NCBI GenBank assembly: GCA_051362555.1
Contig: CM120649.1
Span: 558,001-622,000, forward strand
DNA: 64,000 nt
Direction: 5' to 3'
Source of the DNA: Lingula anatina
Taxonomy: Eukaryota; Animalia; Brachiopoda
Each line of letters begins with the position of its first letter. Position 1 is the stretch's first letter. Shown piece after piece: positions 39,791-62,480 of the stretch. The notes under the pieces are model-generated. The model was not told the DNA's origin. It was given only the letters and a program-made list of their open reading frames with translations, and did not search any database. A program made the translations under genes and the position numbers.

Positions 39791-42400
39791 TCAGACAGTC
39801 TTTCCATCCCAAGTTTTGCCATTAAAGACAAATGCAAGCATCATACCTTAAAACGTTACAAAAAACAATTAACATTTGCATAGTTTAAACATTTAAGTCA
39901 TGCATTTATTTAAGACAAACAGGGGAAGGAGCAAATTAATGATTTAATATGCTCCAATTTGAGATTTTACTTTCTTCTTGATCTCTGCACCTTTTTTTTC
40001 TCTTGTTTATTAGGGCTTTCCACAAAGAGTATTTCAATCTGTTTACTCTTGGTGAACTGTTTCAATATTGTCTTTTGTGTATTTATTAAATAAATAAATA
40101 AATAAGGACTAAAGGAGTCACCTATACAAGAGAACCCTGCCACAATATCGGAGGCGAAGGCATAGCCCGACCACTTGTATAACTGTGCTGACAGTAGCGC
40201 CGCTGTGGCTCCAGTGATGGCCTGGAAAATTACACCAAAAAATTATGTCTGACGTCCTCTTTAATAATATAACAGCATTCTCTTTAATAAATAAATATAA
40301 CTACATTGACAAACAAAATCTTTTAGTGGTCTTCTTGTCTATTGGAAGTTTGAAAGTTAATATCATCAACAACAACTGCGTGATTTCAATTTCCAATATA
40401 TTTAATAAAGTAGGTTGCTTACTACATTACTTGTGTAAATATGGTAAAAAAAGTAAATCATTTCTACAGGAATTTTAACACATTTGTACCTGAGAGACTA
40501 ATTTTGACCCCTCAGCAAGGAGCCCAGATCACATGGCTGACTTGCCAACGTGAGCATGCCTCTCAGCTTTTAAGCTTTTAAAAAACACATTTAGTCTGTT
40601 AATTACTGATTTCCTGGTTCTACCAACCCTACCTGAGAAGTGAATAACATCCCGTAGTTACATGCTGCATACTTCAAGCCATACATGTTAGCAATGACCA
40701 CCGGGTAAAGAACATAATTGCCACTATATACAGCATGGAGGAGACAGTCCCACACAGCAAACAATATGCCACTGTTAAAATATCTGGACAACTCAAATGT
40801 TGACAGCAGAAAGACCATGCAGGCACTTTGGGAGATTAGTGTCAGCTGAAGAGAATAATAAATTATATATTATATAATAAATCATATTTGTTACAGTATA
40901 AATATTCACTTACAGGTACTCACCAGCACTTTAATTAATTAAGCCAAAAGTATATTGAGAAAAGAATTTCCATCAACTGTTTTATGTACTAAATACTGTA
41001 TATAAATGGCTATTTCAATGCTAGCTGTTTAATGAATAAAAATTGCAGCTTTATTTAAGGGCATTGTATTGTATTATTACAGTAGTATCTATTACTTTTA
41101 TAAATTATCACCTTAGCTGAGAAAATACAGAACACTAGTGGCATTCAAGTGTACTTAAATACAACTTTGTCTTGGAAAAAAAAATGAACTGACCAACATG
41201 TGTACAGCAGCTAGGAAAGTAGAAAATTCCAGACACACAACCCTAATTTCCTTGTGACATGTATCTGTTTGAAATAAGTCAAATAGTCTTGATTTCCTAC
41301 CCACCCTAATCCCAATCTTGCTAGCAATGCAACCAAGAACCACTTTTCCTGCAGCAAAGCAAACATGCGACACGGATCCCACTGCAGCTAGAAAGTGGTC
41401 AGACATGTCAAAGTCTGGACTCTGTCCATATATCTGTAGAAAATAAGTTCTTTTACATGTTAGACTTTTATATAACAGAAGAAAATGTGCTTTTTTTTTT
41501 TTTTGGGGGGGGGGGAGGGGCGATGATGTCCACAATTTACCATTAATCATCAAAGTATATGTATATACTGCAATCCAAAAAAACTTTGCGAAATTCATAT
41601 GTTTTAAAACTGTTCTAGATTTTTATTTTGCAGGCCCGAAGCCAGGGGAGGGAGGGGGGTTCAGGGGCTTCAAAAGAACCCCCCTTTTTGCTGGGAAAGG
41701 TTCACTCTGGGTAAATTTGCTCAAAGTAAACTAAAGTTCCATGAAAAAAGGTCCACACCCTTTTGCAATAGCTGGCTACGGGCTTGTAAATTTGATAGCA
41801 AATGAAACTTTGAATATGCCAGTAATAAAAAAACTTGCTTTTGGTCTTACTTTGAAAATACTAGTAATGAAGAAGAGTGCTTGCGTGTTACACATGAACA
41901 TCAGCCATAAGACATAAAACTCCTTTTTTCTGAGAACTTCTAGGGGCTTTGTGTTAGGCTCCTCTAGAGGAATTCTTGAACCATCTCTGTAATATAAAAT
42001 GATTATATATAGAAAGATCAACACCTTTGCTTCATTATCTGTTCAACAGACAAAAATTGAATAAAATTCCAAGTTTTACATAATTTGAATGGAAATGGTC
42101 AGTTTTGATAACTTATTTCACCACAACCATGAGGTATTTAGAGCATTTAAAATAACTATTAAAATATTTCATCAAAAAATAATTCCAACAAGCAGACAGT
42201 ACATAAAAGTTGTCAATCTCTCAAATTGATCTAGACCAGTTAAACGTGCTACTTGGCGTGAAGAGGACCTTACGCTAGAATTCTTCCTGTCCTGTGCCCC
42301 GGCATCAGGCTGTCCTCCATACAACTGGGGCTTCTTTTCTTGTAATTACTATTGCCTGATAATATCACCACAGCTGCCACATCTAAATATTCCTGGAAGA

Positions 42401-42447
<47 letters not shown>

Positions 42448-45400
42448 ACTAGTAGCAGAAAATCACTCAGAGAGCATTGCACCTCTACCAAAGAAGCTTA
42501 ATCCCTGATAAATTAATGAATTAACAGATCCTGATTAAGATCAAACCGATTCTAAGTTAGCCCATTTATAAACTATCCATGTTTTACAAAATCTGTCTAT
42601 AACTGCTTGAGTTAGGGTTTTACCTAGCAAACAAAGGCAAAATCATAACCTCCTTGGCATAAGAAGTAAATATAGGCCCCATTCAGAATAGGGGACTAAC
42701 TAGTCCAAGGGTCAAATATGGCAACCCACTACAAAGCTTGCCATCTAACCCGCTAATAGATACTGAATAGATTTCCAATGGGGAAGTATTCCAGTGGGTC
42801 AGCCATATTTGACACTTGGATTAGTTAGTCCCCTATTCTAAATGTGGCCATAGAAATAAGAAGTTCAGTAATGATGTTAAATGCAGAAAGTTGAGATAAG
42901 AGACCATGCAGTCAAATGGGTCTATTTAAAATCATAATAAAGAACACATTAACTACTATAATAATGATATCAAGCAGTACCTACCTGTATTGCATTGTCT
43001 TCTCTACTGAACAATAGAAAAGTACCAAAAGTCAACAGAATAGCGTAGGTGATGCCAAGACACTGGAAGATACTCGGAACTCTTTCTAACACCTTGTCAT
43101 CCACAAAATATCTGAAACGGAGAGCAATATGTTGATGGTGGTAAAAAAAGATGTTTTTAAGAGAATAAACATGTTTTCTATCTATAGGTATGACATTGCA
43201 ATGCCTCTTCAAATCATCCAATATTCTGGACCTGTATGGGCATGGGTAAAGAAACAGATCTTCCTAATTTACCTGTAAATCAAAACATTTAACATCTATC
43301 TTCACTTGCTTACACTGATATCCAATTGATATCCATTAAGATTATCCATATTTGAACCTACCACTCTGGATATCCAGCAGGATCATTCTTATGTGAACCT
43401 ACCTATCTGGATATGTACCAGGATCATACTTATCTCAACCTACTTGTCTGGATATCCAACAGGATCATCAGAGTCTCTAATAGCCACCGGAGCGATGTTG
43501 TTTGGGTTTGCATACACAGTCAATAAACTTTGGAAGACAGATTTCCCCAAACCAGTGGCGACAATGATAAAAACTATCACGGTGCTCTTCCTGCCTGGAA
43601 ACCACTGAAAAAAAAAAACATTTTAAATTGCAAGAAATTATAAGCATGTACTGGTATATATATCACTTATCCTGAAGAATGATATATTTCAAAATGGCTG
43701 GTCTGTAGAATGAGAACATTTTAGAATACACACTGCCTAAAATATCAATAACTGATTCAGAAATATCTAGAATATCTATGTATAACCACTAGAAGTTAAC
43801 TCTTAAAAACAAAAAACAAAAAACAAGAAAGTAAAACAAGAAAGGTAAACTTAAAATCAAATAATTCCAAGAACACAAAAGTGACCAATTTTGTCTTACA
43901 CACTGGAAGAACAAGAATTTTGCCATGGGTGCATGGAAGGATAAAATAATTGTATCTTTTACTTGCTTTGTAAATCAAATATGAAATAGTAGTAGTAATA
44001 GTAGTGGTGGTGGTATTTTTTTTCTTTTTTTTTTTTTTTTGGGGGGGGGGAGGGGGGGTAAGAACGGGGTACCTCAGACTTTAAGGGAAGGGCAAATGTC
44101 TATTGTGCCCTGTCCCCTGCACCTGATATTTCACACTTACTTTCATAGCACAGACTATAGGAGGCAGATAACAGATACCAATGCCAAACCCATACACATA
44201 TATCATACTTACTTTCATAGCACAGACTATAGGAGGCAGATAACAGATACCAATGCCAAACCCATACACATATATCATACTTTCATAGCACAGACTATAG
44301 GAGGCAGATAACAGATACCAATGCCAAACCCATACACATATATCATACTTACTTTCATAGCACAGACTATAGGAGGCAGATAACAGATACCAATACCAAA
44401 CCCATACACATATATCATACTTACTTTCATAGCACAGACTATAGGAGGCAGATAACAGATACCAATACCAAACCCATACACATATATCATACTTACTTTC
44501 ATAGCACAGACTATAGGAGGCAGATAACAGATACCAATGCCAAACCCATACACCAAACCAAATGACAGCAAAGTGTACAGGTACCCGTGGTCAACATCTT
44601 GGATAGTGAAGTAGGACATGGACACTCCTAGACTGGAAATATATAACTCATGACCTGAAATACTTTAATTAATGCATTAGTACAAGGAACCTATATTTGT
44701 TTTAACAACATTTGTTTTAATTTATTAACTTCTTTTTTCATACAAAAGCAACTGCACCCTAGCTCTTCCTCTGATATTATTACATTTTATTTGCAGATGG
44801 GCACAGTGGCAATTAAGGAATGAAACTGAAATTTTTAAATAAGAAATTTAAAAGAATCAAGAATATTCACATGAACAATTGATATTGGCTATATAAATAA
44901 CCTCAATTCATTCAATGTAGTATGCTAACATGCAAAAAAGATAATAAATAAAGAAATTGTACAGTTTCATTGAATGGGGATTTAAAGAAAAAAAAGATGC
45001 CAGTAAATTTACTCACCATAACAAGAAACCCCCGAGAAAAGTTGTTATTCTTGGTCCAAACCTGTACTCCAGCTTTGCACCTATAAACATGGCGACACCC
45101 ATGCTGACCCACTGGAGGCCATATATCCACGAGGCTTTCTCGTAGGTGAAACAGTCAAAATCATCAAAATCTTCTCCTGATTCAAGGCATATTTTGTTTA
45201 AGCTTCTCATATATGAGGTCATGTAGGTTGTAACATTTCCTAAATAAAGAGAGAAAGAAAAAGAAAGAAGCTGTGAAAAGAAAACTCAAAAACCACAGAA
45301 CTTAATGCAAATTTGAAAACATCACCGAAATTAAAAAAAAATACTGTGATTGCCATTACTGTGCCAATTATTATGTCAGAAAAGTAAAAGTATAACTTAA

Positions 45401-48400
45401 ACAAACTCTCATTATTTTAAAACTTGACTGATTGCTGATTGACAAAATTTACTTTTATCAGTAATATTATCATTTCCAGGATAAAAAAGCCAGTCTATCA
45501 TTACATTAGGCAATGTATAAAGATAACTTTCCGTCCTTTAAAGCAGGTCACAAAATACCATCTTCAGGGGGCCATAGCAATAGTCCGAAGGTTTAATATT
45601 CCGAAGGTTTATTGGTCTGAATGTCCACTATAGAACCTTCGGTTCAAAAACCCTTGATTAAAAAACTGATGAAAATGCTACAATTTTTTGGACCAAAAAA
45701 CCTTTGGACTATCGAGACTCCCCCTCTCTTGATCACTCAGAGTAGAACCTCTGCCAAGGCAGCCCAAGTCTCATAATTAATCAAATCAACTGATAAATTA
45801 ATATATCATTACCAAAATTAAATCAATTCTAGAAAAGCCCATTTCTGAAAGTTTCACTCATCCATTAACTTTTTTTCTGAAATGTTCTATCAAACAAACA
45901 GACAAAACCAAGCCCGCAGAATATAGTTAAAATTTTTGGCCGAGGATGGAATTAAATGTCTCACCAAACAAAAACACTGCACCAACCACCAAGTGCACCA
46001 ACATTCCCCCTATTACTGCCACTATTCCCTTTGACTGGTGGACAACTATCCCATCATCATCCTCCATGTCATATGAACTGTAGGTGGCACTGCTGCCAAG
46101 GGAAAACTCATTTGATTGGATAGAATCTCTCCGCTCATCACAGCGGGGGGTTCTGTTGGAGTTTGTGGGTGTGTCTGATCCCATCTCTCCTACCAGTGAC
46201 ATTTCTCGCTCTTTAATATCGTTTTCTGAACCTGATTGTGAAATAAATTGAATATATCAACAGATCAAATCTATTAAATTACTTTCCCCAATGACTTAAT
46301 TGCAGTGACAGAACCCAGCGGGCACTCAACGTTGATTCAACATTGAGGATAGGTTGAGATGATGTTGAGCCATCAATATTGATAGATCAACAAGATCTCA
46401 ACATTGAATCAACCTTTTCTTGTCAACCAATTGTCAATGTTGATAAATCAGCAGGGTCTCAACATTGATTTAACCTTTCTTTGTCAATCAATTTTCAATG
46501 TTGATAGATCAACAGGATTTCAACATTGAATCAACCTTTTCTTGTCAACCAATTGTCAATGTTGATAGATCAACAGGGTCTCAACATTGATTTTACCTTT
46601 CTTTGTCAATCAGTTTTCAATGTTGATAGATCAACAGGATTTCAACATTGAATCAACCTGTGTTTGTAAACCCTTTGTCAATGTTGACATATCAACTGGA
46701 TCTCAACATTGGGCCAACCTTAACTTTATAACCTTAATCATAACCTTGATAATAGTTTTAAATGATTATCTCACTAGAGAGATATGCATAGGGGTAATTA
46801 CCCCTCATAAAACGCTTGTTTTACCCCTTTTTCATTAAAATTAATTTTGTGAAAAAAGCGGTCGTCAGTTTTTTTAAACTTTCCACAGGTTATCCTTAAG
46901 AAAAAGAAAAAAAACATAGGGTCACCAGCCTTACTTTATGGCATATTGACAAAATTTTACTCAAGGTTGAAGAAAAAGCTTGAAAAAGCCAAAAATGCCT
47001 GTTTTTCTGGAAATTTAAGTTAGCTGTGAGAAAAAAATTAGACTGGTGACCCTTTGTTTTTGTATTCTTAAAATTATCTTAACTACCTGATGTGACGTTA
47101 TAATTATTTTAGTAAAGCTAATTTGTTGTTTAATTTTTATGAGTAATTACCGTATGTGCCTGCATACTTGTATAATGTAAATGAAGTGCGGGACTGTTAT
47201 TAAGTGCGAGACTCCGGATAACATGAACTGATGCAACACGTGAGTGTGGACAGTGTGTAACACTTTTACAGTACAAAAACTGTACTTTATTAACAGTACT
47301 TTGTGAGGCCACACTATCAGGAGGATCGTTCAACAGATAAGGACATGGAAAACGGTGACATTTCGTCTTCAAAACTCCACACTATCAGGAGGAACGTTTA
47401 ACAGAAAAGGACTCGTAAAACTGTGACATTGCGTCTTCAAAACTTAACTGTCTACGAATCTGTCAGAATTGAACTGTATTTGACAAATGTTAAAGTTTAT
47501 GCAACATGATAGTATTACATGTAGTTAGTTTATGTAGTGTATGTTCATTGTTTGTCATATATTATATTCATAGTTAAGTTAGTTGTTGTTTGTGTTTTTT
47601 TTATGTTCGGGCTGTTTTGGTCCGTAACACTGAGCATCAAACTGGAAAGTTTAAAAAGAATCTGACGACCCATAGGTGGATACAGGGGCCGGTCCCGGGG
47701 TCTGGACCCCCCCCTTTCCTTTTCTTCCGAAATTACCTTTTTTTGTAGGTAATTTTCCTAATTTCCCCCCCCTCATTTTTCAGATCTGAGTCTTTTTATT
47801 TCAAGAAATGCTTGATATCTTGGAGAACACCTTCAGCCATCAGGCAAATTTCAATCAAATATCCTGATAGCCTAATTGATATATCAACGTTAATTCAATT
47901 TTCAAATTCAACTTAATTTCAACATTGATTCAACATTGATACCTCAAGGTTGTTTTAACCTTGATGGTTCAAGGTTGATTCAACCTTAATGGTTCAACGT
48001 TGAGTCAACTTTCATAGTCAACGTCATATCAACATAGTTTCAACATTGACCGTCAACGTTGATTCAACATTGATACCTCAAGGTTGATTCAACCTTGATG
48101 GTTCAACGTTGAGTCAACTTTCATAGTCAACGTCATATCAACATAGTTTCAACATTGACCGTCAACGTTGATTCAACATTGATACCTCAAGGTTGATTCA
48201 ACCTTGATGGTTCAACGTTGAGTCAACTTTCATAGTCAACGTCATATCAACATAGTTTCAACGTTGACCGTCAACGTTGATTCAACATTGATACCTCAAG
48301 GTTGATTCAACCTTGATGGTTCAACGTTGAGTCAACTTTCATAGTCAACGTCATATCAACATAGTTTCAACGTTGACCGTCAACGTTGATTCAACATTGA

Positions 48401-49147
48401 TACCTCAAGGTTAATTCAACCTTGATGGTTCAACGTTGAGTCAACTTTCATAGTCAACGTCATATCAACATAGTTTCAACGTTGACCGTCAACGTTGATT
48501 CAACATTGATACCTCAAGGTTGATTCAACCTTGATGGTTCAACGTTGAGTCAACTTTCATAGTCAACGTCATATCAACATAGTTTCAACATTGACCGTCA
48601 ACATTGATTCAACATTGATACCTCAAGGTTGATTCAACCTTGATGGTTCAACGTTGAGTCAACTTTCATAGTCAACGTCATATCAACATAGTTTCAACGT
48701 TGACCGTCAACGTTGATTTAACATTGATATGTCAAGGTTGATTCAACCTTGATGGTTCAACGTTGAGTCAACTTTCATAGTCAACGTCATATCAACATAG
48801 TTTCAACGTTGACCATCAACGTTGATTCAACATTGATTCAATTTTGATTTGCCCGCTGGGAAGATACAGCAATATAATGGGGGATGGGGCAGAAAAGAAA
48901 AGAAAAAATCAAGATAATAACAATTATCATATTCATAAAATAAATAAAATGAAAATATATATATATATAAATATTGTTTACAAAATACATTTTTGCCACT
49001 CCAGTAAAACATTATGACACCATTATCCATTTGATTATGTGGAGTACATGATCTACTGCTGTTTAGAGCAAGAAAGTAGCAGAAAAAGTCCTTACTTGTA
49101 GTACATGTGTAGGCCTCTGACAACTCACTGTCCCAGTCCTCCTCCAT
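39791..49147 (-). CDS. MFS transporter, oxalate:formate antiporter-like (paralog 3); 12 coding exons with acidic N-terminal extension
   Basis: First exon 49096-49147 (MEEDWDSELSEAYTCTT, phase 1) splices in frame to 45965-46231 (SSENDIKEREMSLVG...KGIVAVIGGMLVHLVVG). Then GNVTTYMTSYMR, YGFGIGICYLPP, WFPGRKSTVIV, AAGKVVLG, NYGMLFTSQ, exon 40122-40221 (VAGFSCIG), and last exon 39791-39846 MMLAFVFNGKTWDGKTV*. Confidence 0.9.
42675..42849. mobile_element. Short palindromic MITE (Harbinger-like termini)
   Basis: ggccccattcagaataggggactaactagtccaag...cttggattagttagtcccctattctaaatgtggcc. Confidence 0.8.
44135..44552 (-). repeat. Tandem array (72-bp unit, 6 copies including the native exon end) of an MFS-3 exon 3' end plus donor site
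   Basis: Exon-end copies start at 44141, 44213, 44281, 44353, 44425 and 44497; the unit encodes VSMIYVYGFGIGICYLPPIVCAMK; one unit is 68 bp. Confidence 0.97.
46314..48860. mobile_element. Non-autonomous CMC/EnSpm-type DNA transposon (2547 bp) with subterminal tandem arrays
   Basis: TIRs CCCAGCGGGCA / TGCCCGCTGGG, AA on both flanks. Left array of ~61-bp units (122-bp period), right array of ~8 x 109-bp units, both rich in TCAACGTTGA-type palindromes. No transposase ORF. Confidence 0.9.
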
Positions 49148-50054
49148 GTCAGGAACTGTTGGTGAACAATTCCTTATCAAACCATCCAAAGTGAACAGTT
49201 ACTCATATACATAATATATTTCATAAATCTTAACTTTTCATTCACTTAACCACTGTGACCAATGTCCATTAGAAATGAGATTCAAAACATTCCTCAGTTT
49301 TAATGGTCAACGTGATAAAAAGTTACTACTGAGTTAATAGATACTGATAGCTGACCTGATAAAAGCTTTACATTACTTCAAATAAATCAGCTGTAAAATT
49401 GTCCAGGCATGTTCACACAAGTTGAAGTAAGACTGGATTTTGGGCAAAATGGGGATGAGAAATTTCTTGACTCTCTTAAGAGATTTTTACCAAAAAACAA
49501 TCCAACTGACTAACTTTGAATGTGAGAAAGAATTCATGAACCATTTGTAAGTATGGAAACTCAGTCATTTACCCCAGGAAAATTGGTGTTACGGCACTTT
49601 TACCACCAAAATGAAGAGTTTTTATCCCTTTTACTCACCTTGGCAGTAAAATGGAATATATCTCAACAGTCTTAGTTTCTTCAACCCTTTATATTAATAT
49701 TGCACACAAGCAATGCTTTTTTCTAATGATTGTTTTCTTATTTTCATTTTAACTTTACTACAATTTCTTTCAAGGGCAATATGAAGGCAAGAAAATTTTA
49801 ATTTAAAAATACAGGTGGATACATTTTGGGTCTGATATTAAAACTTTACAGTCGGTTTGACATTTGTTTTGTGGTTTAGGGTACATTCAGCAACATGTTA
49901 TATAAAGGGTGATCAGTATTATACACATGTTACTAATCATGGATTGATAAGTTAGTGAAGATAACAATGTCACAATCAGGAGGGCCATAATGTACGTAGA
50001 CACGTTCACACTGAAACTATATAGGCACAATATAACTGTGTCTGTTCTAGTAAA

Positions 50055-50271
50055 AACCCCTTTACACTGGATGGCGTCCTTTCTGTGTCCTTTGAGCGAC
50101 CATGAAACTGGCATCGCTGTGATCATAGAAAGTGCGCACAAGCATTGATTTGGATGCAGAATGGATGCTCAATGTTCAACCAGTTGTCAGCACGTAAAGT
50201 ATATTTTTTGATTCTCAATCAGAGCCGTACTACAGGATGCAGAAAGGACACCATCCATTGTAAAGAGGGCT
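50055..50271. mobile_element. MITE with imperfect TIRs
   Basis: cccctttacactggatggcgtcctttctg / cagaaaggacaccatccattgtaaagaggg. Confidence 0.7.
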
Positions 50272-51639
50272 TAAAGAAGACTGTATAACAGCAATTTTAG
50301 GATACTTATGAAATCAATCCGATTGGTTCTATAATGAGTCTGTTTGGTCAAATATCCAATGCTGGTGATGGTTATAATAAATGACTGATATACCTAGTGA
50401 AACGTCTTAAATCAGGGACAGTTTAAGCCCAAAGGCACACTTTCAGTCAAGTTGAGAGGCACTCAATTTGGTATATCCCACCTACAGCTTGTTGGACAAC
50501 AATGGGAATCATCCAAAGCCCCCCACACACACACACACACACACACCACCACCAGCACCCTCCCCCAACCACCAAAGTCTGTCAGTCTAACATTTAAACC
50601 AAGATTCCACAGTATTTAGAAAAGAGCAGGACCAAAAATAATGGCAGAATATTTCAGTTTTTTTGGATGATGTTCATTTGGCTAGCTTACCACACTGAGA
50701 AAGTTGAGGCAAATTTCCAATTAAATTAATCCAGCCTAATTCAGCACCTATAATCTTATCAGTCTTTCTGATAACATCATATACCAAAGCATTAACAAAA
50801 ACGGCGTAACAAAAATTAAAACTTAATAACATGTTGCTTTATTGATTCATTTCATAAGAACAAAAAAGTCTGTTGTCTGCAAAAGTCAGTAATGCTCTGA
50901 CGACCAACACAATGACGCATCAACAGAGTCTGCTGCTTACAAAACAACCTGTTGTGTATCAAAATAGAGGCAAGTTCAGATCCTGATAGATGTCCAGTTT
51001 TCCCATTGGTCAATTGTATAAAGGTGACCTGAACCTTAGTAAAGTTTCCTTCATTTTGAATTCTGTTAAACACTCCAAAGATGTTCTTCCCTTTTATAAC
51101 ATTTCATGTCCACATTTGTTAGTACGTTGGTCAGGAGTGCCGGTGAAAACTTTAACACCACACTACCAGCATCTGTTAGCATCAAACCAAATTTAAAAAA
51201 GAATACAATGTATAACAGCCTGTTGAAAGTTCTGTCTATTAACCGGACTGTAGAAGCAGTAAAAAAGTTTCAACATTTTTATATCAGTACTATTATCTAG
51301 TTTACAAATAACCATATTATTAACAATGAAACATGTTTTTCTTTATCTTTCAATGCGATAATGTTCAGAAATCCCAGACTGACTATTGTGTTACATTGCA
51401 ACATAGTCAAACTGCAGCATAAAATATCTGATTTTTGCCAGAATCAACACAATAAAAACAACCATCAGAGATGAACATATGGGCACAATGTTAACCATAA
51501 ACTGAACCACTATGACGCCCGATGTTCCTTGGGAAGAATGTTAATACCTGCTTGGAAACCCTCTATATCTTCAGAGATCAAATGCACCTTGTTGATGTTG
51601 TTTTCATGTCCATCATTTGTCAATCCAAACTTTTTCTTT

Positions 51640-54600
51640 TCATCTCATAAAAACCGATGTATTTCGGAAACTGGAATTATCACTGAAATGAGGAAATTAA
51701 AAAAGTTTTAGGTAAAACCATGCTGAAGCTTCCACTGCATTCTTGGCCAATTGTAAAATTGTATACCTAGATGAAGTTACATGACTGTATACCTAGTAAG
51801 ATGAAGAATAGAAATGTGTTAAAATGAGAGAGAAAGAGAGAAAGAAAGAGATGGGGTGGGCAGGAAAACTTCAAAAGAAATAAAGCAGACAAATGCTGAA
51901 TAACTGCTAGGTTATTGCACATTTTATGTTGGGTAAAATAAATGCCTAAAGCTACTTTTACCCTGTTACTATAAAATACCCTTCATGTAACATATCAACT
52001 TTAAAAGCAACTTACATCAGAGAGAAAAGCTCCCATTAACTACTAAGGAAAAGAATGTTTCCTTCTTTTTTTATTAAAAAAATTTAATGTTTTTAATGGG
52101 ATACTTGTTTTGTAAAACTGTTGATGAAAATACACACCTTAAACTCTCACTGTGTTTCTTATATTCCATTATTGTATTTGGCGGTAGATTTAGTATCCTT
52201 TTCAGCGTGTCCCTAATTCTGGATGTCGTCTGCTGATCATGTGCTGTTCTATTCCACAATGATAAAATATCCTCCTGTAAATAAACAAGTATGGCTTAAA
52301 AACAGAATCAATTTAATGGCTGGAGGGAATACTGCAAAATTACATTTTTACCTTTCTAAGGCTTAACAATATCAGGGGCGGATTTAGGCCGCCTTCTGGG
52401 TTTTCCGGAATATGGTCAGATTTTCAAGTTTACATTGACAGGTATCCAATTTTTCCTGTTGGAAAACGGTCAAAATTGGAGGATGAATCAACAAAGATAA
52501 TTTGGAAGACTGTCAGCAAATAGCTCTGGATCTGCCCCTGAATATTAAGTGTATAAACAATACCACAAGCTGACAACTTTTTTATTTTCAAGATTAAACA
52601 ACACATGGTGAATAAACAATGTCTGGTTGGTTGGCCTTGCTTGGGTTGGACTCCCTGTAACTCACTGACCAAATTACATATTCACATTTAGGACTCCCTG
52701 TACGCCAAATCCTGTAGAAACCCCCTGACCTAGTCCTAGTATATTACCTGATATCTTATTGAGATCGCAGCTCCACATATTTCCTCTCCCACCATAAACT
52801 GTTCACCTATCATAGCAAATACCAGGTTCTCCCAGCACCTGTAGAAACCCCTGACCTAGTCCTAGTATATTACCTGATATCTTATTGAGATAACAGCTCC
52901 ACATATTTCCTCTCCCACCATAAACTGTTCTCCTATCATAGCAAATACAAGGTTCTCCCAGCACCTCGACGCTAACCCCTTCTTAAGACGAACAATCCAC
53001 TTGCCGCCATTTTTATTTGCATCATCCTGAAAAGAAAATTTAAATTACATTATAACAAATGTTCCTTTTGAAACATAATATAATAAATCTTTATTTATAG
53101 TGTATATGATTTTCTGTTATATGCTTTTTCAATTCCAATTTTTGTCTTCGTTCCTCCCTTTTTCTTCTTTCCTATTCTGTGTTTCTTTCTTTTTCGTATC
53201 CTACAATGTTTTCCTTACCTATTTTTCTATACACCATCTTTAATATTCTGTCTGCACAGGGACTAGTATGTAGATATATTTCTGGAGGTCTCCACTCATT
53301 TTCCTTACCTCCCACAAGGGTCTGACTCCCTCCTTAAACAGATGATAGTCACTGTGTCCTTACCTCCCACATGGGTCTGACTCCCTCCTTAAACAGATGA
53401 TAGTCACTGTGTCCTTACCTCCCACATGGGTCTGACTCCCTCCTTAAACAGATGGTAGTCACTGTGTCCTTACCTCCCACATGGGTCTGACTCCTTCTTT
53501 AAACAGATGGTAGTCACTGTGTCCTTACCTCCCACATTGGTCTGACTCCTTCTTTAAACAGATGGTAGTCACTGTGTCCTTACCTCCCACATTGGTCTGA
53601 CTCCTTCTTTAAACAGATGGTAGTCACTGTGTCCTTACCTCCCACATTGGTCTGACTCCTTCTTTAAACAGATGATAGTCACTGTGTCCTGACAAGTCAC
53701 CAGGTCTGGCAATGTGACTGTAGTTGGCAAAAAACTGTTCCACCTATAATGAAATTAAATTAAAATCTAACAAGATTGGTCCATCTACGAGGGGTTTCTC
53801 GCTAAATTGCTTATAGCATAAGTGGCTTAGATGTCTGGCACGCCCACTGAAGCTGTTAAATGATAATTAATTACATACTAGCAGCTTCAGTAGGTAGACA
53901 TCTAAGCTGCTGAACTTGATTACAATTTAGCGAGAATCCCCTCAGAGGTAGATCGATTCAGTTAGTATGATAGGGTCTGGTTATGGTCCCTGAGACTGAT
54001 ATTCAGGTAGTGATACAAGCAAATCATGTGATGCACAGGCTCTAGGTACACGCTGCACTTGGGAGCTGTGCCAAGTATGGGAGCTCTCTGTTTCAGTGGT
54101 TCTCTTATATCAAAGACTGGGTATAAAACTGTCCTCTTCTCTAAACACAACACTTCAGATCCAAGAATGAAGTACCGTAATATTTCTTCAGTGACAGGTT
54201 AATATGGAAATAGTTTTTCCCTCCAAATTTTACCTCCAAAAGAAAAATTACTTAATTTTTATAACATGACACAGCTGATGAAATTCTTCTCTGACTTAAG
54301 ACCCAATAATCAATACAAAAAGGCCTACTAGTATATACTCACAGATGCAAAAGTTCCTATATTTTTCAAATTCTGGTCATAGCTGGAAGAAGATGTCTGT
54401 TTTCCTGGTGTGCGTCGTGAGAACCAAAAACAATAGTTGAACTGGAGTGGATGTTCACCTTTTCCTGGTTTTACCACAGGCTGGAAGGAGACAGTCAGAT
54501 ATTAAATGAAAACATTTAATGAAGCCTAGGATATACTGAAAGAACTTACAACAACTACACTTTGCCTGGTATTCACCTTTTCATAGTGAAAACACAGGCT

Positions 54601-54829
54601 GGAAAATATTATATTTGTAACATTTTTTAAAATCAAGCAAAACATTTTAATATGCATATAAATGACAGTACTAGTATGTAAAATTAATATATAAAAATAT
54701 ATTTAAATGAAAAGGGCACATAAAGCTCTATACCAGAACAACTTCCAAAATATAAATATAAAATTATCAACATCAAGCAATGAAACTTCCGAGCACTAAT
54801 TTGGTGTCAGTTGAGACATGGCTAAAATT

Positions 54830-54877
<48 letters not shown>

Positions 54878-56416
54878 ACCAATACTAACTGACATCCTGC
54901 AAGACAGATAGACTCTAAATAAAGTTTAAATTGAACACTTATATATAACTATAATTTAATGGAGTAGATGTCCAAGTCAGAAATACCCTTGACTCTTTGT
55001 TTTTCTGTTCTCCATTTTCATCTTCTCCACTGTCTTCTTCATTTTTGAGCCTAAGGAGAAAATAAAATTAAAAATATGAGTGTAAGGCCTACCTTATAAA
55101 GCTTGTGCAAGACATGTAAGAGTAAATGTAACGTCTATGTATCCTAGCTAAATATACATGTATGCTTTGGAAATAGGGAAGTTTAATAGGGTGTTAAAGG
55201 GGAGGGTCTAGCAAGCCATTGTATACAGTACATACATATTGGAAAGGAGGGTGAGGGGGTGAGGAGAGTTGGCTTTGTGGATCAGGAGTCAGCTCCATGA
55301 AAAAGAAAACTGCATAACCTTGAAGACAAAATATGAATTCCTCCATTTCAGTTCAGGATAAGTGTACTGTAGTCCAAACACTTGAACTTTTAACTTTATA
55401 CACTAATACCAGTAAATATTTTAAAACTATTGACCATTCGTAAACATAAGCCACTTCTTTCTATTTTTAGCACAGACATAACATACAACTTTTATAGCCC
55501 ACTATTTGTAATTACTGTAGTGCCAGGGGCAGGTAGAACCGGCCGGGTAGCTCAGTAGGTAAGAGCACTCGCCCTGTAAGCGAGGGGTCCCGGGTTCGAT
55601 TCCTGGCCTGGCTGGTGATTTTTCTGCACTCACCCCAAATCGCTACAATGGTGGCAGCGGTGTTGCGAGATAGGGCTCGCGTCTTTCGGCATTTGGGGGG
55701 GAGGAGTGTAGTGCCAGGGGCAGGTAGAACCGGCCGGGTAGCTCAGTAGGTAAGAGCACTCGCCCTGTAAGCGAGGGGTCCCGGGTTCGATTCCTGGCCT
55801 GGCTGGTGATTTTTCTGCACTCACCCCAAATCGCTACATTACTATTCAATAAAATCACACTCAAAGTTGACTAACATTTAACGTTTGTCTTTAAGTTTAG
55901 ATCAGCTTTAGTGGCACAAACAGTCCGTATTTTACTTTTGAATACAAATACCATACAGCTGGGAAAGGGAGGTCTTTGAAAAATTTTTGACCCAAATATC
56001 TGAACAAAATCTTGGACTTAATCACTGGCATGACGTGGATCAAAATATCTACTGCATGAGCCACGTTCGAAGTTGAAGGAGTTTCTTTTTATAATCCGGT
56101 GCAATATAGACAGGGCAAGACAATATAGTACCTAGCTTTCAAAGTATTATTATCCATGTAGCACCCTATATAGGACCTATTTGTAAAGACAGCCTTTTTC
56201 TGATTCAAAAGTTACACGCTTTATCTTGGTGCACTCTAGTCTTGGTACATCGAATGAAATGTTTTGATCCTGGCGTCAAATGCCCGAGAAAATACGAGAT
56301 CTACCAGGTGAAAAATACGCTCAACTCCCTCAAAAACCACTGCAATCCACGCCGATTGTGTATTCGTGAAAACACACAACCCCATTTTATACTTACGCAT
56401 CAAATTTGTTGTTCAT
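51640..56416 (-). CDS. EIF4E2: Eukaryotic translation initiation factor 4E type 2 (4EHP); 7 coding exons
   Basis: Exons 56397-56416 (MNNKFDA), ~54987-55050, ~54343-54480 (EHPLQFNYCFWFSRRTPG..YDQNLK..GTFAS), 53639-53743 (HSDYHLFKEGVRPMWE), 52874-53026 (DDANKNGGKWIVRLKKGLASRCWENL..EEICGAVISIR), ~52139-52275 (EDILSLWN..RIRDTLKRILNLPPNTIMEYK), 51640-51682 (DNSSFRNT). These are class II eIF4E signatures. Confidence 0.96.
52711..52965 (-). repeat. 126-bp tandem duplication of the EIF4E2 exon-5 3' end plus intron start
   Basis: Two copies of RCWENLVFAMIGEQFMVGEEICGA(V/A)ISIRYQ|gtaatatactaggactaggtcagggg; exon ends at 52874 and 52748. Confidence 0.95.
53303..53690 (-). repeat. Tandem array (55-bp unit, 7 copies) of the EIF4E2 exon-4 3' end plus GTAAG donor
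   Basis: ccttacctcccaca... at 53303, 53358, 53413, 53468, 53523, 53578 and 53633. Confidence 0.97.
53773..53992. mobile_element. MITE, same family as 18650-18865
   Basis: Shared internal blocks, and right end ggtctggttatggtccc. Confidence 0.7.
55541..55613 (+). tRNA. tRNA-Thr(UGU)-like sequence inside the 5' LTR (probably not a functional tRNA gene)
   Basis: Cloverleaf: GGCCGGG/CCTGGCT acceptor, GCTC/GAGC D stem, CTCGC-CC TGT AA-GCGAG anticodon arm, CCGGG-TTCGATT-CCTGG T arm. A and B boxes intact, TTTTT a few nt downstream, C instead of U33. Confidence 0.7.
55732..55804 (+). tRNA. tRNA-Thr(UGU)-like sequence inside the 3' LTR
   Basis: Identical to 55541-55613. Confidence 0.7.
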
Positions 56417-56735
56417 TTTGTACGATTTTGTGAAATATTTACAAAAAATATGTTGTCGATTTGGCACGGTCCTGCTTAGGCTTGGTATTGTCTCTCTCTA
56501 GGCTGACAGGAAGTAAGGGAACGTTTACACCGTGAAAGTGGTGCATTTAAATCTTGACACATCTACTGACATTACATCTATTATGTTTTATTTGTATCTT
56601 ATTAGTATTATATTTATTCAGCCAGGCTAAATATCTCAACAAAGGATAAAAATACGTACAAAATGTAAGTAATATAATTTTTCATATTCGCCACATTGTC
56701 CCTTTACCACTAACAAAAACAAAGATGGCGGCGCC
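56417..56735. promoter_or_regulatory. Bidirectional promoter shared by EIF4E2 and MED4
   Basis: Divergent ATGs separated by 308 bp. ETS-like CAGGAAGT near 56507; YY1-like AAGATGGCGGC overlapping the MED4 start codon. Confidence 0.75.
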
Positions 56736-59700
56736 CGGTACGAAGCAAGTTTTGCTCTCGCTAATCGAAGATGTAGAAATAATCACAAAGTGAGCATTAA
56801 GTTTAATAATTGCTACAGTGCAAGTTGACTCTTAACACGGAATGATTGAACTAAACATGTTGTGCCTATGTTTTGTCGTATTCTTGCTTAATTTATTTTC
56901 ATCGTTTATGTGACTTGGTCTTCTCACGTGCTCAAAATAATTGAACAAAGCCGGAGTGTGGGAGTTTGTTTTGGTGGGGGGTGGGCCCTGGGGGTACATG
57001 ATGATACCCTGTTATAGTTATGGCACTTACAAACCAGGCCGAAGTGTTGCTCACTGCCATGGCATGCAGAATGTACTAAATTAAGATTTGTCACAGTAAT
57101 TTACTAGTATGCAGATTACCTTAATATATTGGCTTTTCGCGACAACGGGTTCTCTGCTTTCGTTAATTTTCTGGTTTCTTGCCCTGTGATTGCCTTTGGG
57201 AATTTGGGGACTAAGGCTTCATTCACATGCAATGTCTATTTTCTAAATTCTATTTTCTATTCGCGGTATGTCTTATGATCGCGGTCTGTGCCCTGAATAT
57301 CCCGCGGCGTAATTACTGGCAGTGCGAGCCAGTTACTATAAGTTACTTTAAGTATATACAAATACGCAATTATATATGCAGAAAATATAGTGTGTAATGC
57401 ATGTTCTTTGTAGTATTAAAGGCTAGTAATGCTATTATATATTATTATAATAAAAAAGGTACTATTTTCAAAATATTTTCTTCAAAGTATGGGCAATCTA
57501 ACTCTATGATGGCTTCGGCATAGCGGGCTGTCGACGCAGCGAACCTTTCGGCACAAAATAAAAACAATCGAGTAGAGAGCCTGTAAAATGTAACTTGTAC
57601 ACATTTTGTGATCAATTCAATTTTCAATTCAATTTATTTCTGTACTGGTACATAGATTGTCATGACCTTGTACAATATGATATATTAATGATGATACAAT
57701 ACAATTGGTGCATTACCATTTCTCTAATTGGTAATTATGTTGCCTAGCCGTTTGTGAATGAAAAAATAATCTTTATATAATGAACATATGTACTAGTAAA
57801 TTTATTCATAAAATATTCTATCTAAGATAAACCTTGGTGTGATTATAAATTTACCATAAACATACTATAAAGATATGGATACAAGCATATGCCACATAAA
57901 AGGATATGTTCAAACTTAAAGGGAGGGAGAACTACAGTTACATAGCTGTTTACATGGCTGTTAAAAGGGGGCCGTAGCAATAGTCCGAAGGTTCAGTAGA
58001 TCAATAAAGATTAAGATTATTATTATTTTTTATTTGCAGAGAACTGTTTGAGCTGATGTCAGCCAAGAAGACTGAGACTTCTACAGAGCCTGTAGCAGAC
58101 ACGGGGCAACTGATGGAGTTGCTGCTGAAGAAAGATGCAGAAATACAGGCTGCTTTGAAAACAGGTATGCACCCAGCCACTTCAGAGTATGACAAAAAGC
58201 TAAAAAATATTAAATTAATGAAAGCTCAGGTTCAGTAATGTGATTAGGTGAGCACAACTCTAATTCTGATTAATACTGTGAGCCTGGAAGATACCAGTCC
58301 CAGAAAATGAAAAATCAATTTTTCTTTCTTTCTCTCTTTCTTTTTTTTTTTTTTTTGGGGGGGGGGGGTGGAGGGATGTTTAGGGGTTTGGACCCTCACA
58401 TTAATGTTTACTGAAAGAAGTGATTAAAATGTTTGTTTCCTATTTTGCTGAATGCTGAATTATCTTTATGGGTAATTTGCCATCTGCAGTTGTTTGCTTT
58501 GAAGTTCCCTGATTATGTAACATCCTCTGCTATCTCGGCTTAACTTGTGAACTGTGGGTTGTTTATAACAGCTGTTTGTGGGAGTTCTTCCTCTGTGAAT
58601 TTTGACATGTGGTCACAGGTTTATCACAGCAGGTCACATGATATGTCTTGTCCAATAGTATTCATGATAACAGGTCACATAGTCTGTCTTGGCCAATAGT
58701 ATTCATCATAGCATACCTCATTTCTGGTCTCAATAGTTTGGATTATAAGATCTCAGGCTACTGGCATTGAAGGCAGTAGGCAGTAGTCTTGTTGGAGGTA
58801 TGGGGAATTGCAGACAGTGGGGAAACTAGAATGTTCTTTTCTCACACAGTCTTGTCTGAAGAACAGAGTTTATATAAATAATTTAGATGAGCAGGATTCA
58901 GGTAAAGATTTTGTTAATGAAAAATTTTATGTTAACTCATTTAATCTAAGAATTTAGAAATGTTTACAGAGAGATGGAAAGGAGAGAGTGATGGAGGTCA
59001 AATTACCTTGTATAGACAGACAAAACAATGTCATAGTTGCACTTTCTCAAACTTGATATATGTTAGAATTATTTTGGACTTTTTTCTGTCATTATTTGTC
59101 TTTTATACCTAGAAAAAGCAAATGAAGGATTAGAAAGTGAGCTCTTTATTTGTGTGGGGGATTTTAAGTAACAATTTTGCTACATTTGAAAAAAGAAAAA
59201 GAAAAAGAAAATGATTTTGGTGTATTTGATGATGGCCATGTCACTGACATATGTATACCACAAAAGAAATAAAAAAGGATTTTTTTACAAGAGAATTTTA
59301 AAAGATTATCAACACATTTTCTGTCACGTTGTTCTTTATTTATTTTTTTAGCAACAGAGCAAGGTGAAGTCCAGAAGAAGATTGAAGCCTTGCAGGTAGA
59401 AGTTGACAGAAGAGATGCTGATATACTTCAGTTGCAGAAGAATCTGAAGGAAGCAGAAACTATTTTGGTTAGAAATTATTCTGTGTGTTAAGTATAGTAC
59501 GGTAATGACTCAGATCTTTTCAATGGGCAAAAATGATCAAACTTTCAGATACATCATTTTAAACCCATAAAATTTATATTTTTGTATAGCAGTTGTGGTG
59601 CTTTTAATGCATAATATAGAACTATAAGGTAGTCTGCTTTTCAATTTTGTTGTCAACACTGAATAGGGTTGCTCTTATTTTAGGAAATTAAGACTTTAAA

Positions 59701-62480
59701 ATAAATCTGAAAAATTCACAATTTTCCCCCATTGAAAAGATACAGTCATTACTGTATACTAGTATATATTTGCATGGACCACAGTATTGAAAAAAATTGT
59801 ACTTTATATTTTTAATGTTTCATACAAGGTGTGGTATTAATTCATTCAGTTGAAGTCTGCTTGAGAAAATTGACATATGGGAAGCTAAGATGTATAAGCA
59901 GATTTAGGTAACATTTCACACCCATTAGTTCAAATTCATGCTCTTGGTTTCAAGCTAGTAATCCGTGAGAGCTTGATCGTATGGAGGTCTTGGGAGTGCC
60001 CACCACTAGGGGGCAGCCTGGTGTTTGAATTAACCAATCAGTTTATGATTTATTTGATTGACAATTTTATTGATACAGTTAAGCATAAAAACCCATGAAC
60101 TTGAATATGAAAGGGAGACTGGAAAGACTAGAAGGAAAGAGGTCATGATTGAAGCTTAGAGTTGACCATGCTTGTACCATGTAACTTTTAGTTTAGCAAA
60201 ATGTATTCTGTTGAAGTTATAACATGGAGTCGTTTCATTCTTTTTGTGTGCAGAGTTTAAGGCATAGAAACAGGGAATCTCTGTAACAGCTTTGCATTAT
60301 CCAAATATATGATCCCATTTTGCCCAACTCCTGGGGGTTAAATTATAAAGGATTATTTGATGTGGTGTGGGGGTCGGGTTATAATAAAAAAAGACCCTTT
60401 TAATGGGTGAAAGTTTTTAGGATCATTATGCCTGATTTAATGATTTTTAGTCTTTATCTTGTTCATTTTGAGAAATTGCAAGCAACATTTTAAAAGGATT
60501 TTCAGTTTTTACAACTGTTTACCACTTGTCCCATGTGTTTGCATTTGGAATTAATGTATAATTATTTAGGGCATTTATTGTTTCAAGAAAAATATATATA
60601 CTGAACCTTCACACTGCATTGTAACTTAACTAGAAATTTAAAAAATCTTAAATTTAATAAGTCTTATGTCAGTTTAACCTCCAAACTACTAGTGCATTTT
60701 TCGTTACTTTTTATCACTGTGACTGCACTTACTTCTTTTAAAAACCTTACACAAGCAAACTTTCAAGATATTACTTTTACAGAATACTAGATTGAAATTT
60801 CTACATATTAAGCAATGCAAATCTGCATCTCTGCAGTGAGAGCCACATATTTCTGCCACTCATTTTATTATCTTTTTAAAAACACTGCCATTCTTGCTTG
60901 AAGCAAATGCCCTGGTGCAGCCAATGATATGGGCCTGTGAGATCAGACATAATTCATCGTTTCTCTCATTTCTAGGCAACAGCCATATATCAAGCCAAAC
61001 AGAAACTGACCTCCATCAAGCAGGCTAATCAGAAGTCCATTCCGTCTGAAGAGCTCATAAAGTATGCACATAAAATTAGCTCTAGTCATGCTGTAGCAGC
61101 TCCTAATACTTGGCAACCAGGTAATGCTGTTATCATATACTATTTATTTTGTCACTGACCCAACTCTGTACAATCTGATATCAACTAACCTCAGGTGTTA
61201 CTAAATATAATGAATAATACTGGACTGTGGGAATCCTTTTTGAGAGCTTCATTATGCAGTGAGTGGCCACATTCATTATCCACATCATTCTTACCATGCT
61301 TTTCATGAAATTAGACTTTCCATTTTGAAATAAACTGCTTTTCACAATGTTTGATCAATGTTTATCAGATATAGCTTTCAGTGCTGATATATTTTTACAA
61401 ATGATTTAATAATGAATTTTACTCAGAATTAGTCACTGGAGGGCATCTTTTGAGTGTTGACCAAACATTGTTAATGAACCCCAATTCAATTCAAATAGTT
61501 ATCACTTCTTTCCTACTCAAATAATTATAAATCCTGAAAATCAAAGGAGTGGAAAAGATGAGTAATGACAAGTTTGTTTTATCACTCAGGTGATCCCAGA
61601 CGGCCATATCCCACAGAGTTAGACATGAGGATGGGATTCCTGGGGCGGCTGAACAACCCTAACTTCCAGTCCCAGCCTGGGTTAGGAGCCGATCCTCAAC
61701 TCTCAAGGCAGCCAGGACAGTTAGGTAGGGTTGCTAGGAAAAATTGCACTACCCACCCCTGCTCTAAATCTCTCTCCTTTGCTCCATCTCTCTCTCTCTC
61801 ACACACACACACATAATACAGACCAAAATCTCTGCCTCTCTTTTTCTCTCACACAAAATAATCTTCTTCACCCCCTCTCTCTCTCTCTCACACACAATGT
61901 TAGCCAAAATCTTTCTCTCTCCCTCTCCCTTTGTCTCTCTCTCACATAATAAAAACTAATATCCTTCTTCATTTCTTCCTCTCTCTCTCACACATTACAG
62001 AAAAAATCTCTCTTCCTCCCCCGTCTCTCTCTCTCTCTCTCATATATTATATTACCAAAGTTAATCAGAGTAGATTCTAAGTGATGTTGTTAATCTCAAT
62101 CCATGGTTATTTTACACACATCACTTCTTTATAATTTCAGACCACACTCCTTCTCATGCAGTATACAATATAGATATCTTTCTCACATAATAAATTATAT
62201 TAGCAAAGTTAAATCAAAGTTAATACAAAGTAATGTTTATAATCTCAGTCCATGATTATTTTACATGTAACATTTTTTGATAATTTCAGACCACACTCCT
62301 TCCCATGCAGCATCGATGCCATGGCAACCACCACCAGAGCTGTCATCCAGCATTTCCATGGCAACGACCAATCAGGCAGCAATGTCAGAGGTCAAAGGGC
62401 TGAACAAAGAGAATGAAGATGTTGAAGTGATGTCCACAGATTCTTCAAGCAGTTCTTCCAGTGATGAGTCAAGACCGTAA
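56725..62480 (+). CDS. MED4: Mediator of RNA polymerase II transcription subunit 4; 6 coding exons
   Basis: Exons 56725-56789, 58040-58164, 59352-59467 ([19 protein letters not shown]), 60976-61120 ([36 protein letters not shown]), 61590-61724 ([17 protein letters not shown]), 62290-62480 ([17 protein letters not shown]). Confidence 0.96.
61765..62041. repeat. Degenerate CT/CA-rich low-complexity repeat in the last MED4 intron
   Basis: Recurrent aaaatct(ct)n-cacaca units. Confidence 0.8.

What the first reader, a model, noticed from the sequence alone, without database searches (positions are those of the whole stretch)
41805..62310. Six splice-junction-spanning tandem duplications in three neighbouring genes, with differences concentrated at third codon positions
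Seen: exon ends plus splice sites are tandemly copied into adjacent introns at 41805-41880, 43350-43470 and 44135-44552 (MFS-3), 52711-52965 and 53303-53690 (EIF4E2), and 62057-62310 (MED4). MFS paralogs 1 and 2 show none that I could find. My hand count of variant sites in the exon-derived part of the five well-aligned cases is 13 of 16 at third codon positions (AAA/AAG, GAA/GAG, CCA/CCC, TAT/TAC, CTT/CTG, GGA/GGT, GGC/GGT, TTC/TTT x2, ATT/ATA, TCT/TCC, and the third bases of GTT/GCG and AGT/GGC). About one third is expected for neutral intronic DNA. Inference: the copies may exchange sequence with the functional exon by conversion or unequal crossover and be purged of replacement changes by proxy, or archive older alleles, or sometimes be spliced in. 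A junction-targeted duplication process or a decoy-splice-site regulatory system is possible.
Basis: partly seen in the sequence, partly recalled or inferred. Interest (0 to 1): 0.8.

Follow-up and report, generated by a model that had tools for sequence, protein, structure and literature searches.

The report
Splice-edge repeats hoard exon alleles
In three lamp-shell (Lingula) genes, exon edges with their splice signals are copied head-to-tail into the introns, a repeat type already known from lancelets and humans ("mirages"); in the one array tested with RNA the copies are not spliced in, and most of their silent differences are letters that other individuals carry in the working exon, likely because exon and copies swap sequence by misaligned recombination.

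Summary
The repeats are real. Five of the six arrays are clear, one is marginal, and I found a seventh. The window is Lingula anatina. Such arrays are known as "mirage" minisatellites in lancelets and occur in human F7 and CBS. This scan noted them in three other windows of this genome.

All six give 14 of 23 and all seven 15 of 29. The fair null is about 0.47, not 1/3. The bias sits in the three young arrays (8 of 10), not the four old ones (7 of 19).

For the 55-bp EIF4E2 array, RNA from three studies uses the first donor. Three of its four silent variants are standing alleles of the expressed exon. Another sample's DNA also holds the array. A toy model with no function for the copies gives the same pattern.

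Verdict: neutral mirages that hold exon alleles. A regulatory decoy system is not supported. Back-flow into the exon is inferred, not shown.

The parts
41807..41882 (-). Case 1: MFS-3 exon end 41851-41874 plus donor, one old copy 42 nt downstream; the copy's donor has decayed (GTTTCA). 4 of 5 differences at third positions
   Evidence: marginal score
43328..43468 (-).
44126..44553 (-). Case 3: 72-nt unit x6 (57 nt exon + 15 nt intron; one unit has lost 4 nt of its donor), in frame without stop; one silent variant GGC/GGT; RefSeq model P0121 includes one unit
52711..52966 (-). Case 4: 126-nt unit x2 (91 nt of EIF4E2 exon + 35 nt intron); AGG microhomology at the edges; the copy is preceded by an acceptor-like TTTCTACAG; 3 of 4 differences at third positions; read-through meets a stop
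   Evidence: not tested with reads
53302..53693 (-). Case 5: 55-nt unit x7.1 (51 nt of EIF4E2 exon 53639-53743 + GTAA); AGGA microhomology; proximal copies carry this haplotype's exon letters, distal copies carry the other exon allele (AAG, GAG, CCC); first donor used
54454..54604 (-). Case 7 (new): EIF4E2 acceptor plus 27 exon nt copied 118 nt upstream; would form a 49-nt stop-bearing cassette 54550-54598 ending at GTAAGT; no RNA depth there; 1 of 6 differences at third positions
   Evidence: (D15)
62042..62313 (+). Case 6: 149-nt unit, acceptor plus 21 nt of the MED4 last exon copied upstream; 1 silent difference in 21 exon nt, 19 in 99 intron nt; use of the upstream acceptor would truncate the protein
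   Evidence: not tested with reads
39791..49147 (-). MFS-3 coding span (RefSeq LOC106154417, P0121), host of cases 1-3
51643..56416 (-). EIF4E2 coding span (P0002), host of cases 4, 5, 7
56725..62481 (+). MED4 coding span, host of case 6

Best explanation
These are splice-junction minisatellites ('mirages'): head-to-tail copies of an exon edge that lie in the intron, are not spliced in where RNA was read, and in young arrays likely trade sequence with the working exon by misaligned recombination between the two chromosomes. Step 1 (inferred): a slip at 3-4 nt of microhomology (AGG, AGGA; shown) copies an exon edge. It survives because one intact exon with its nearest splice site remains. Step 2 (shown for case 5): the exon-proximal donor is used. 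Step 3 (shown for case 5): the species is very polymorphic, exon alleles differ at silent sites, and the array holds units of two such alleles in a 5'-to-3' gradient. Step 4 (inferred): unequal crossover or conversion between homologues moves units between array and exon position. Only the exon is under selection, so silent letters circulate and replacement letters are overwritten. Step 5 (pattern shown, cause inferred): once copies diverge too far to pair they decay at all codon positions.
For:: spliced reads carry the distal copies' letters in the exon itself. 53663 AAG: X11 34/34, X14 6/10, X17 3/7. 53660 GAG: 34/34, 6/10, 6/7. 53648 CCC: 20/20, 2/4, 6/6. These letters come with exon SNPs outside the unit (53693/53695: 66/68, 5/11, 15/15), so they are alleles. 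All 11 exonic SNP rows shown are silent; overlap of 3 of 4 SNP sites with array sites has P=0.022. RNA depth over copies 2-4 is about 1, 0 and under 2, against 72, 12 and 19 in the exon. Young arrays 8 of 10 third-position, old 7 of 19 (Fisher P=0.05). Toy simulation without function: third share 0.40-0.49 with little exchange or no recombination, 0.55-0.85 with frequent exchange plus recombination or conversion between homologues, where 65-88% of such differences are exon alleles. Lancelet BflGb6 alignment, counted by eye: all 5 exon allelic differences are silent and all 5 also vary among the copies; 14 of 21 variant sites are third positions. Hint of back-flow: all four combinations of 53672 and 53663, 9 nt apart, occur across the window, X11 and X17 (few reads).
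Against: Allele sharing was tested in 1 of 7 arrays. The fourth silent variant (TAT/TAC) is not among the 40 rows shown (117 hidden) and may be a plain intronic mutation. Direction is not shown: a one-way archive explains the same letters. Over all seven cases the third-position share (15 of 29) does not exceed the 0.47 null. The old case 1 has 4 of 5, which this model does not predict. The intron part of case 4 has 0 substitutions in 35 nt, where allele capture would allow some. RefSeq P0121 includes one 72-nt unit as coding, with a replacement (Ile to His). The simulation is a toy with unfitted parameters (N=100, 3 runs per setting).
Confidence: 0.58

Rival explanations
1. One-way archive. 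Copies are made only from the exon. Distal copies keep an older allele, the exon later changed on this haplotype and seeded the proximal copies, and nothing returns to the exon.
For: Case 5 is a gradient with one switch point (inside copy 4) from this haplotype's letters to the allele that is most common in RNA, and copy 6 equals that allele at all five variable sites. The most diverged RNA sample X17 mostly has the distal letters, which suggests they are ancestral.
Against: TAC spans both sides of the switch (copies 2-5), which needs exchange among copies. The four-combination pattern 9 nt apart hints at conversion into the exon (few reads). Without exchange between homologues the toy model gives only 0.40-0.49 third positions.
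Confidence: 0.27
2. The copies are functional: sometimes spliced in, or acting as decoy or poison splice sites that tune expression, and so kept under protein-level or splicing selection.
For: Donors are intact in 7 of 7 copies of case 5 and 5 of 6 of case 3. Cases 1 and 3 extend in frame without a stop. RefSeq P0121 includes one 72-nt unit. Case 7 has both an acceptor and a donor. Human CBS and 6-16 use proximal pseudo-donors (PMC1557585, Introduction).
Against: No read-through into case 5 and zero depth on case 7 in three RNA runs. Cases 2, 4, 5 and 6 would give a frameshift or stop. Old copies carry 15 replacement changes of 22, including stops. P0002 contains no unit.
Confidence: 0.07
3. 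The third-position excess is chance plus selective counting, and the variants are ordinary intronic mutations.
For: 15 of 29 over all cases; P=0.37 against the 0.47 null.
Against: Three of four silent variants of case 5 match exon alleles letter for letter (site overlap P=0.022). The lancelet alignment shows the same sharing (by eye).
Confidence: 0.06
4. Assembly artefact: two haplotypes merged in tandem, or collapsed repeats mis-expanded.
For: The array mixes two exon alleles. No raw long reads of the window's own individual were laid.
Against: X3 (another sample, another study) has an 85-nt contig with 0 differences across unit joints at about twice flank depth (92 vs 42-46), and its flank contig ends inside the last copy. 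The independently derived RefSeq protein P0121 holds a case-3 unit. Old copies are only 76-82% alike. The exact copy number is not verified.
Confidence: 0.02

Closest known systems
Amphioxus 'mirage' minisatellites (Adh3, globins BflGb6/BflGb9, troponin C, PGBD5). PMC3087553: passages and supplement 4 read. PMC3902484: passage read. The original Adh3 paper (PMC117041) was not held.
   Same: Tandem units of 10-160 bp spanning a donor or acceptor, spare AG/GT signals, normal splicing, concerted evolution with distinct boundary units. By my eye count the BflGb6 copies also share exon allelic letters.
   Different: Different phylum (brachiopod). Here population RNA shows directly that copy variants are exon alleles. 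The globin paper's main text has 0 hits for 'synonymous' and 'gene conversion'. Somatic instability was not tested here.
Human exon-intron boundary VNTRs: F7 IVS7 (37 bp), CBS IVS13, LMNB2, PDGF, 6-16. PMC1557585: abstract and Introduction read.
   Same: The first unit spans the donor, identical pseudo-donors follow, and the most upstream donor is chosen in F7.
   Different: The F7 unit holds only 4 exon nt, so no codon signal is possible. Lingula units hold 21-91 exon nt. CBS and 6-16 also use proximal pseudo-sites, which was not seen in case 5.
Intron gain by tandem duplication at AG|GT proto-splice sites (PMC4974935: search listing only; Rogers model as cited in PMC3087553)
   Same: Case 4 has AG|GT at the duplication edge and an acceptor-like stretch before the copy.
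   Different: No new intron is shown. P0002 has the ordinary exon. Case 4 was not tested with reads.
Gene conversion between a functional copy and a neutral copy (population-genetic theory, recalled; no paper read)
   Same: Predicts an excess of silent differences when exchange is frequent and alleles are diverse; reproduced in a toy model.
   Different: Usually framed for whole duplicate genes or pseudogenes, not for 50-nt exon ends inside the same gene's intron.

Membership tests
Mirage minisatellite | Head-to-tail repeat whose unit spans an exon-intron boundary | tested here: met
   All seven cases; case 1 marginal
Mirage minisatellite | Unit of about 10-160 bp | tested here: met
   41-149 nt; range from PMC3087553
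Mirage minisatellite | Many but not all copies keep AG/GT signals | tested here: met
   intact in cases 2, 4, 5, 6, 7; weakened in one unit of case 3 and in case 1
Mirage minisatellite | Regular splicing is not disturbed | tested here: inconclusive
   Met for cases 5 and 7. Case 4 rests on the RefSeq model only. The RefSeq model for case 3 includes one unit. Cases 1, 2, 6 have no reads.
Mirage minisatellite | Concerted evolution with distinct boundary units | tested here: met
   Neighbouring copies share variants. The last copy has private changes in case 5 (ATG/TTG) and case 3 (2 of 15 intron nt).
Mirage minisatellite | Copy-number alleles between haplotypes | tested here: inconclusive
   X3 contigs show the array but collapse it
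Mirage minisatellite | Somatic length instability (reported for Adh3) | not testable with these tools
   Needs single-molecule reads from one animal
Mutually exclusive or cassette exons from tandem exon duplication | Each copy is a whole exon with its own acceptor and donor, and is spliced | tested here: not met
   Five cases copy one edge only. Case 7 has both sites but zero RNA depth. The case 4 copy has both but is untested.
Poison exon / decoy splice regulation | Inclusion rises when NMD is blocked | not testable with these tools
   No NMD-inhibited run among those offered

The most novel reading that the evidence does not exclude
In highly polymorphic marine invertebrates, mirages form a genome-wide allele reservoir. 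They store exon alleles in the gene's own introns and feed them back by conversion, which raises silent diversity and fine-scale recombination at exon ends, occasionally injects replacement changes, and keeps back-up splice sites. The codon bias is then a readable signature of selection acting by proxy on non-coding DNA.
Probability: 0.3. Interest if true: 0.62.

Novelty: new member of a known kind. Interest (0 to 1): 0.36.

Why it matters
The structure is known. The added piece is direct evidence, in one array, that mirage copies hold alleles of the expressed exon. That makes the long-proposed unequal-crossover turnover of mirages testable with existing population data. There are two practical points. 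Such copies mislead read mapping: exon-end reads of the other allele land on intronic copies (depth 4-7 at 53349-53442). They can also mislead gene models, as P0121 possibly shows. Both bias SNP calls and annotation in polymorphic invertebrates.

Tried and rejected
No whole genome is held, so no genome-wide enrichment test was run. No RNA holder was listed in the index for 51400-54700 (not evidence either way); raw 2026 RNA runs were laid instead. Reads could be laid on one stretch only, so cases 1-4 and 6 have no read test. Two protein searches for transcript-derived MFS-3 forms with or without the 72-nt unit returned only P0121. A poison-cassette reading of case 7 had no RNA depth, though NMD could hide it. 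Leaving out three non-junction arrays that I guessed to be transposon- or tRNA-derived gives 5 of 8, P=0.004; the transposon label was not tested, so I rely on 5 of 11. The lower divergence of the exon part in case 6 is not significant (1 of 21 vs 19 of 99, P=0.19). The '5 on edge' total printed is a loose count; on reading, only the donor array in L056/L058 (99% identical, counted once) spans a junction. Literature: 10 searches found no paper reporting codon bias or exon-allele sharing in mirages, or mirages in Lingula. The original Adh3 paper was not held and may already say so.
Full report
Setting. The EIF4E2 exon is 100% identical to a named Lingula anatina protein (P0002), and an MFS-3 exon matches LOC106154417 (P0121). 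Pfam supports IF4E and Med4, and MFS_1 weakly, below its cut-off. No whole genome was held. I set exon edges by tblastn and by eye: 80 junctions in 35.6 kb of gene span.

Observation. All six arrays are present. A uniform self-scan (periods 18-300, low-complexity masked) found 20 hits scoring 13 or more and 12 scoring 25 or more. In 150 shuffled windows none reached 25. Case 1 scores 14: 0.64 such hits per shuffled window, 0.02 on a junction. A seventh case is an EIF4E2 acceptor copied 118 nt upstream (score 18). Of the 11 clear arrays inside annotated genes (the twelfth, at 63704, lies outside them and was dropped), 5 span a junction against 2.07 expected, P=0.036. The window was chosen for this pattern, so this is weak. 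No hit falls on a junction of MFS-1 or MFS-2.

Codon count. The 13 of 16 reproduces. The omitted case 2 has 1 of 7 and case 7 has 1 of 6, giving 14 of 23 and 15 of 29. One third is also the wrong null. The exon lineage adds silent changes only (silent share of random changes 0.23-0.30), so plain divergence gives about (0.33+0.25)/1.25 = 0.47 (my derivation; the toy model gives 0.44-0.49 at low exchange). The signal lies in the three young arrays (8 of 10; P=0.037 vs 0.47) and not in the four old ones (7 of 19; 15 of 22 changes are replacements or stops). Young against old gives Fisher P=0.05. I made this split after seeing the data.

Reads (stretch 53255-54640; RNA runs X11, X14, X17 from three studies, 6-25% of each read; DNA contigs X3). 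Joints link the exon to the upstream exon. Depth over copies 2-4 is about 1, 0 and under 2, against 72, 12 and 19 in the exon, so the exon is not extended through the array. The would-be 49-nt cassette of case 7 has zero depth in 3 of 3 runs. The exon letters that mark the distal copies occur in spliced RNA: AAG 34/34, 6/10, 3/7; GAG 34/34, 6/10, 6/7; CCC 20/20, 2/4, 6/6. The same samples carry exon SNPs outside the unit, and X14 shows both alleles, so the window's exon is not an error. All 11 exonic SNP rows shown are silent, 10 of them at third positions. The overlap of 3 of the 4 SNP sites in the unit with the 4 third-position array sites has P=0.022. TAT/TAC and ATG/TTG are not among the 40 rows shown, and 117 rows were hidden. 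Reads at 53349-53442 (depth 4-7) are best read as exon ends of the other allele placed on the copies they match (inference). X3 has an 85-nt contig without differences across unit joints at depth 92 against 42-46 in the flanks. That length equals one 55-nt cycle at word size 31 (word size recalled). Only 8 of 1270 pieces were shown. The array therefore exists in a second sample; its copy number is not verified.

Anatomy of case 5. Copies 1-3 read AAA GAA CCA, copy 4 AAA GAA CCC, and copies 5-7 AAG GAG CCC. TAC spans copies 2-5 and copy 7 has a private ATG to TTG change. This is one switch point between two exon alleles, plus exchange among the middle copies. Edges show AGGA microhomology in case 5 and AGG in case 4. 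Use of distal sites would give a stop or frameshift in cases 2, 4, 5 and 6, and in-frame extensions in cases 1 and 3.

Mechanism. A toy forward model had one selected exon copy and one neutral copy (N=100, theta 0.03, 3 runs per setting, unfitted). The third-position share was 0.40-0.49 with little exchange or no recombination. It rose to 0.55-0.85 with frequent exchange plus recombination or conversion between homologues, and 65-88% of those differences were then exon alleles. No function for the copies is needed. Whether letters flow back into the exon is not shown. The one hint is that all four combinations of 53672 and 53663, 9 nt apart, occur, and this rests on 3 of 7 X17 reads.

Against my reading. 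Allele sharing was tested in 1 of 7 arrays. Case 1 is old yet has 4 of 5 third positions. Case 4's intron part has 0 substitutions in 35 nt. RefSeq P0121 includes one 72-nt unit as coding, with Ile to His in the copy. This shows the array in another assembly. It may be a modelling error or real use of the second donor; two protein searches found no transcript-derived form to decide.

Comparison. PMC3087553 (passages, supplement 4) describes exon-intron boundary minisatellites in lancelet Adh3 and globins with normal splicing, length instability and concerted evolution. PMC3902484 (passage) adds troponin C and PGBD5. PMC1557585 (abstract, Introduction) covers human F7, CBS, LMNB2, PDGF and 6-16, with first-donor choice in F7. 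In the BflGb6 alignment I counted by eye 5 of 5 exon allelic differences as silent and shared with copies, and 14 of 21 variant sites at third positions (P=0.056 vs 0.47). The signature therefore looks generic to mirages. Among 29 exon-structured EIF4E2 loci of other organisms (of 80 fetched), one pair (L056/L058, 99% identical) has an independent donor array at the same exon end, decaying mostly at non-third positions (about 1 of 6 by eye). Ten literature searches found no report of the codon bias or of allele sharing. The original Adh3 paper was not held, and supplements of bioRxiv preprints were closed, so prior description cannot be excluded.

Verdict. Real, a new member of a known kind, most likely neutral. 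The allele-sharing result is the part worth following. Interest 0.36.

Noticed in passing
window 55516-55838: Two 100% identical 132-nt copies, each holding a tRNA-Thr(TGT) call (55540-55615, 55731-55806), in EIF4E2 intron 1 on the opposite strand; tRNA gene or tRNA-derived SINE not resolved.
   Followed up: partly
window 56416-56725: EIF4E2 and MED4 start codons lie head to head about 310 nt apart, a likely shared bidirectional promoter.
   Followed up: no
window 44425-44496; P0121: The RefSeq MFS-3 model carries one 24-aa mirage unit as coding, with Ile to His in the copy; possible annotation error or real second-donor use.
   Followed up: partly
window 46373-46711 and 47884-48837: Purely intronic arrays of 61 nt x5.6 and 109 nt x8.7 in MFS-3 intron 1, both rich in a partly palindromic TCAACATTGA motif.
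   Followed up: no
window 53772-54006 and 54242-54335: High-copy dispersed repeats in an EIF4E2 intron; summed X3 contig depth up to 87,000 against about 46 for unique DNA, also present in poly(A) RNA.
   Followed up: no
L056 370-524 and 1-310 (same in L058 for the first): Another organism has an independent donor-spanning array (about 50 nt x3) at the same EIF4E2 exon end as case 5, and a 44-nt intronic array ending exactly at that exon's acceptor.
   Followed up: partly
window 18900-49147: Three tandem MFS paralogs with a shared exon plan; only the third has junction arrays.
   Followed up: partly
window 63704-63986: 57-59-nt repeat at period 224 overlapping a Pro/Ala-rich minus-strand frame of an unannotated downstream gene.
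   Followed up: no
window 54343-54480: RNA run X17 differs from the window at four further silent sites in this exon that X11 and X14 lack, so it may be a diverged population.
   Followed up: no
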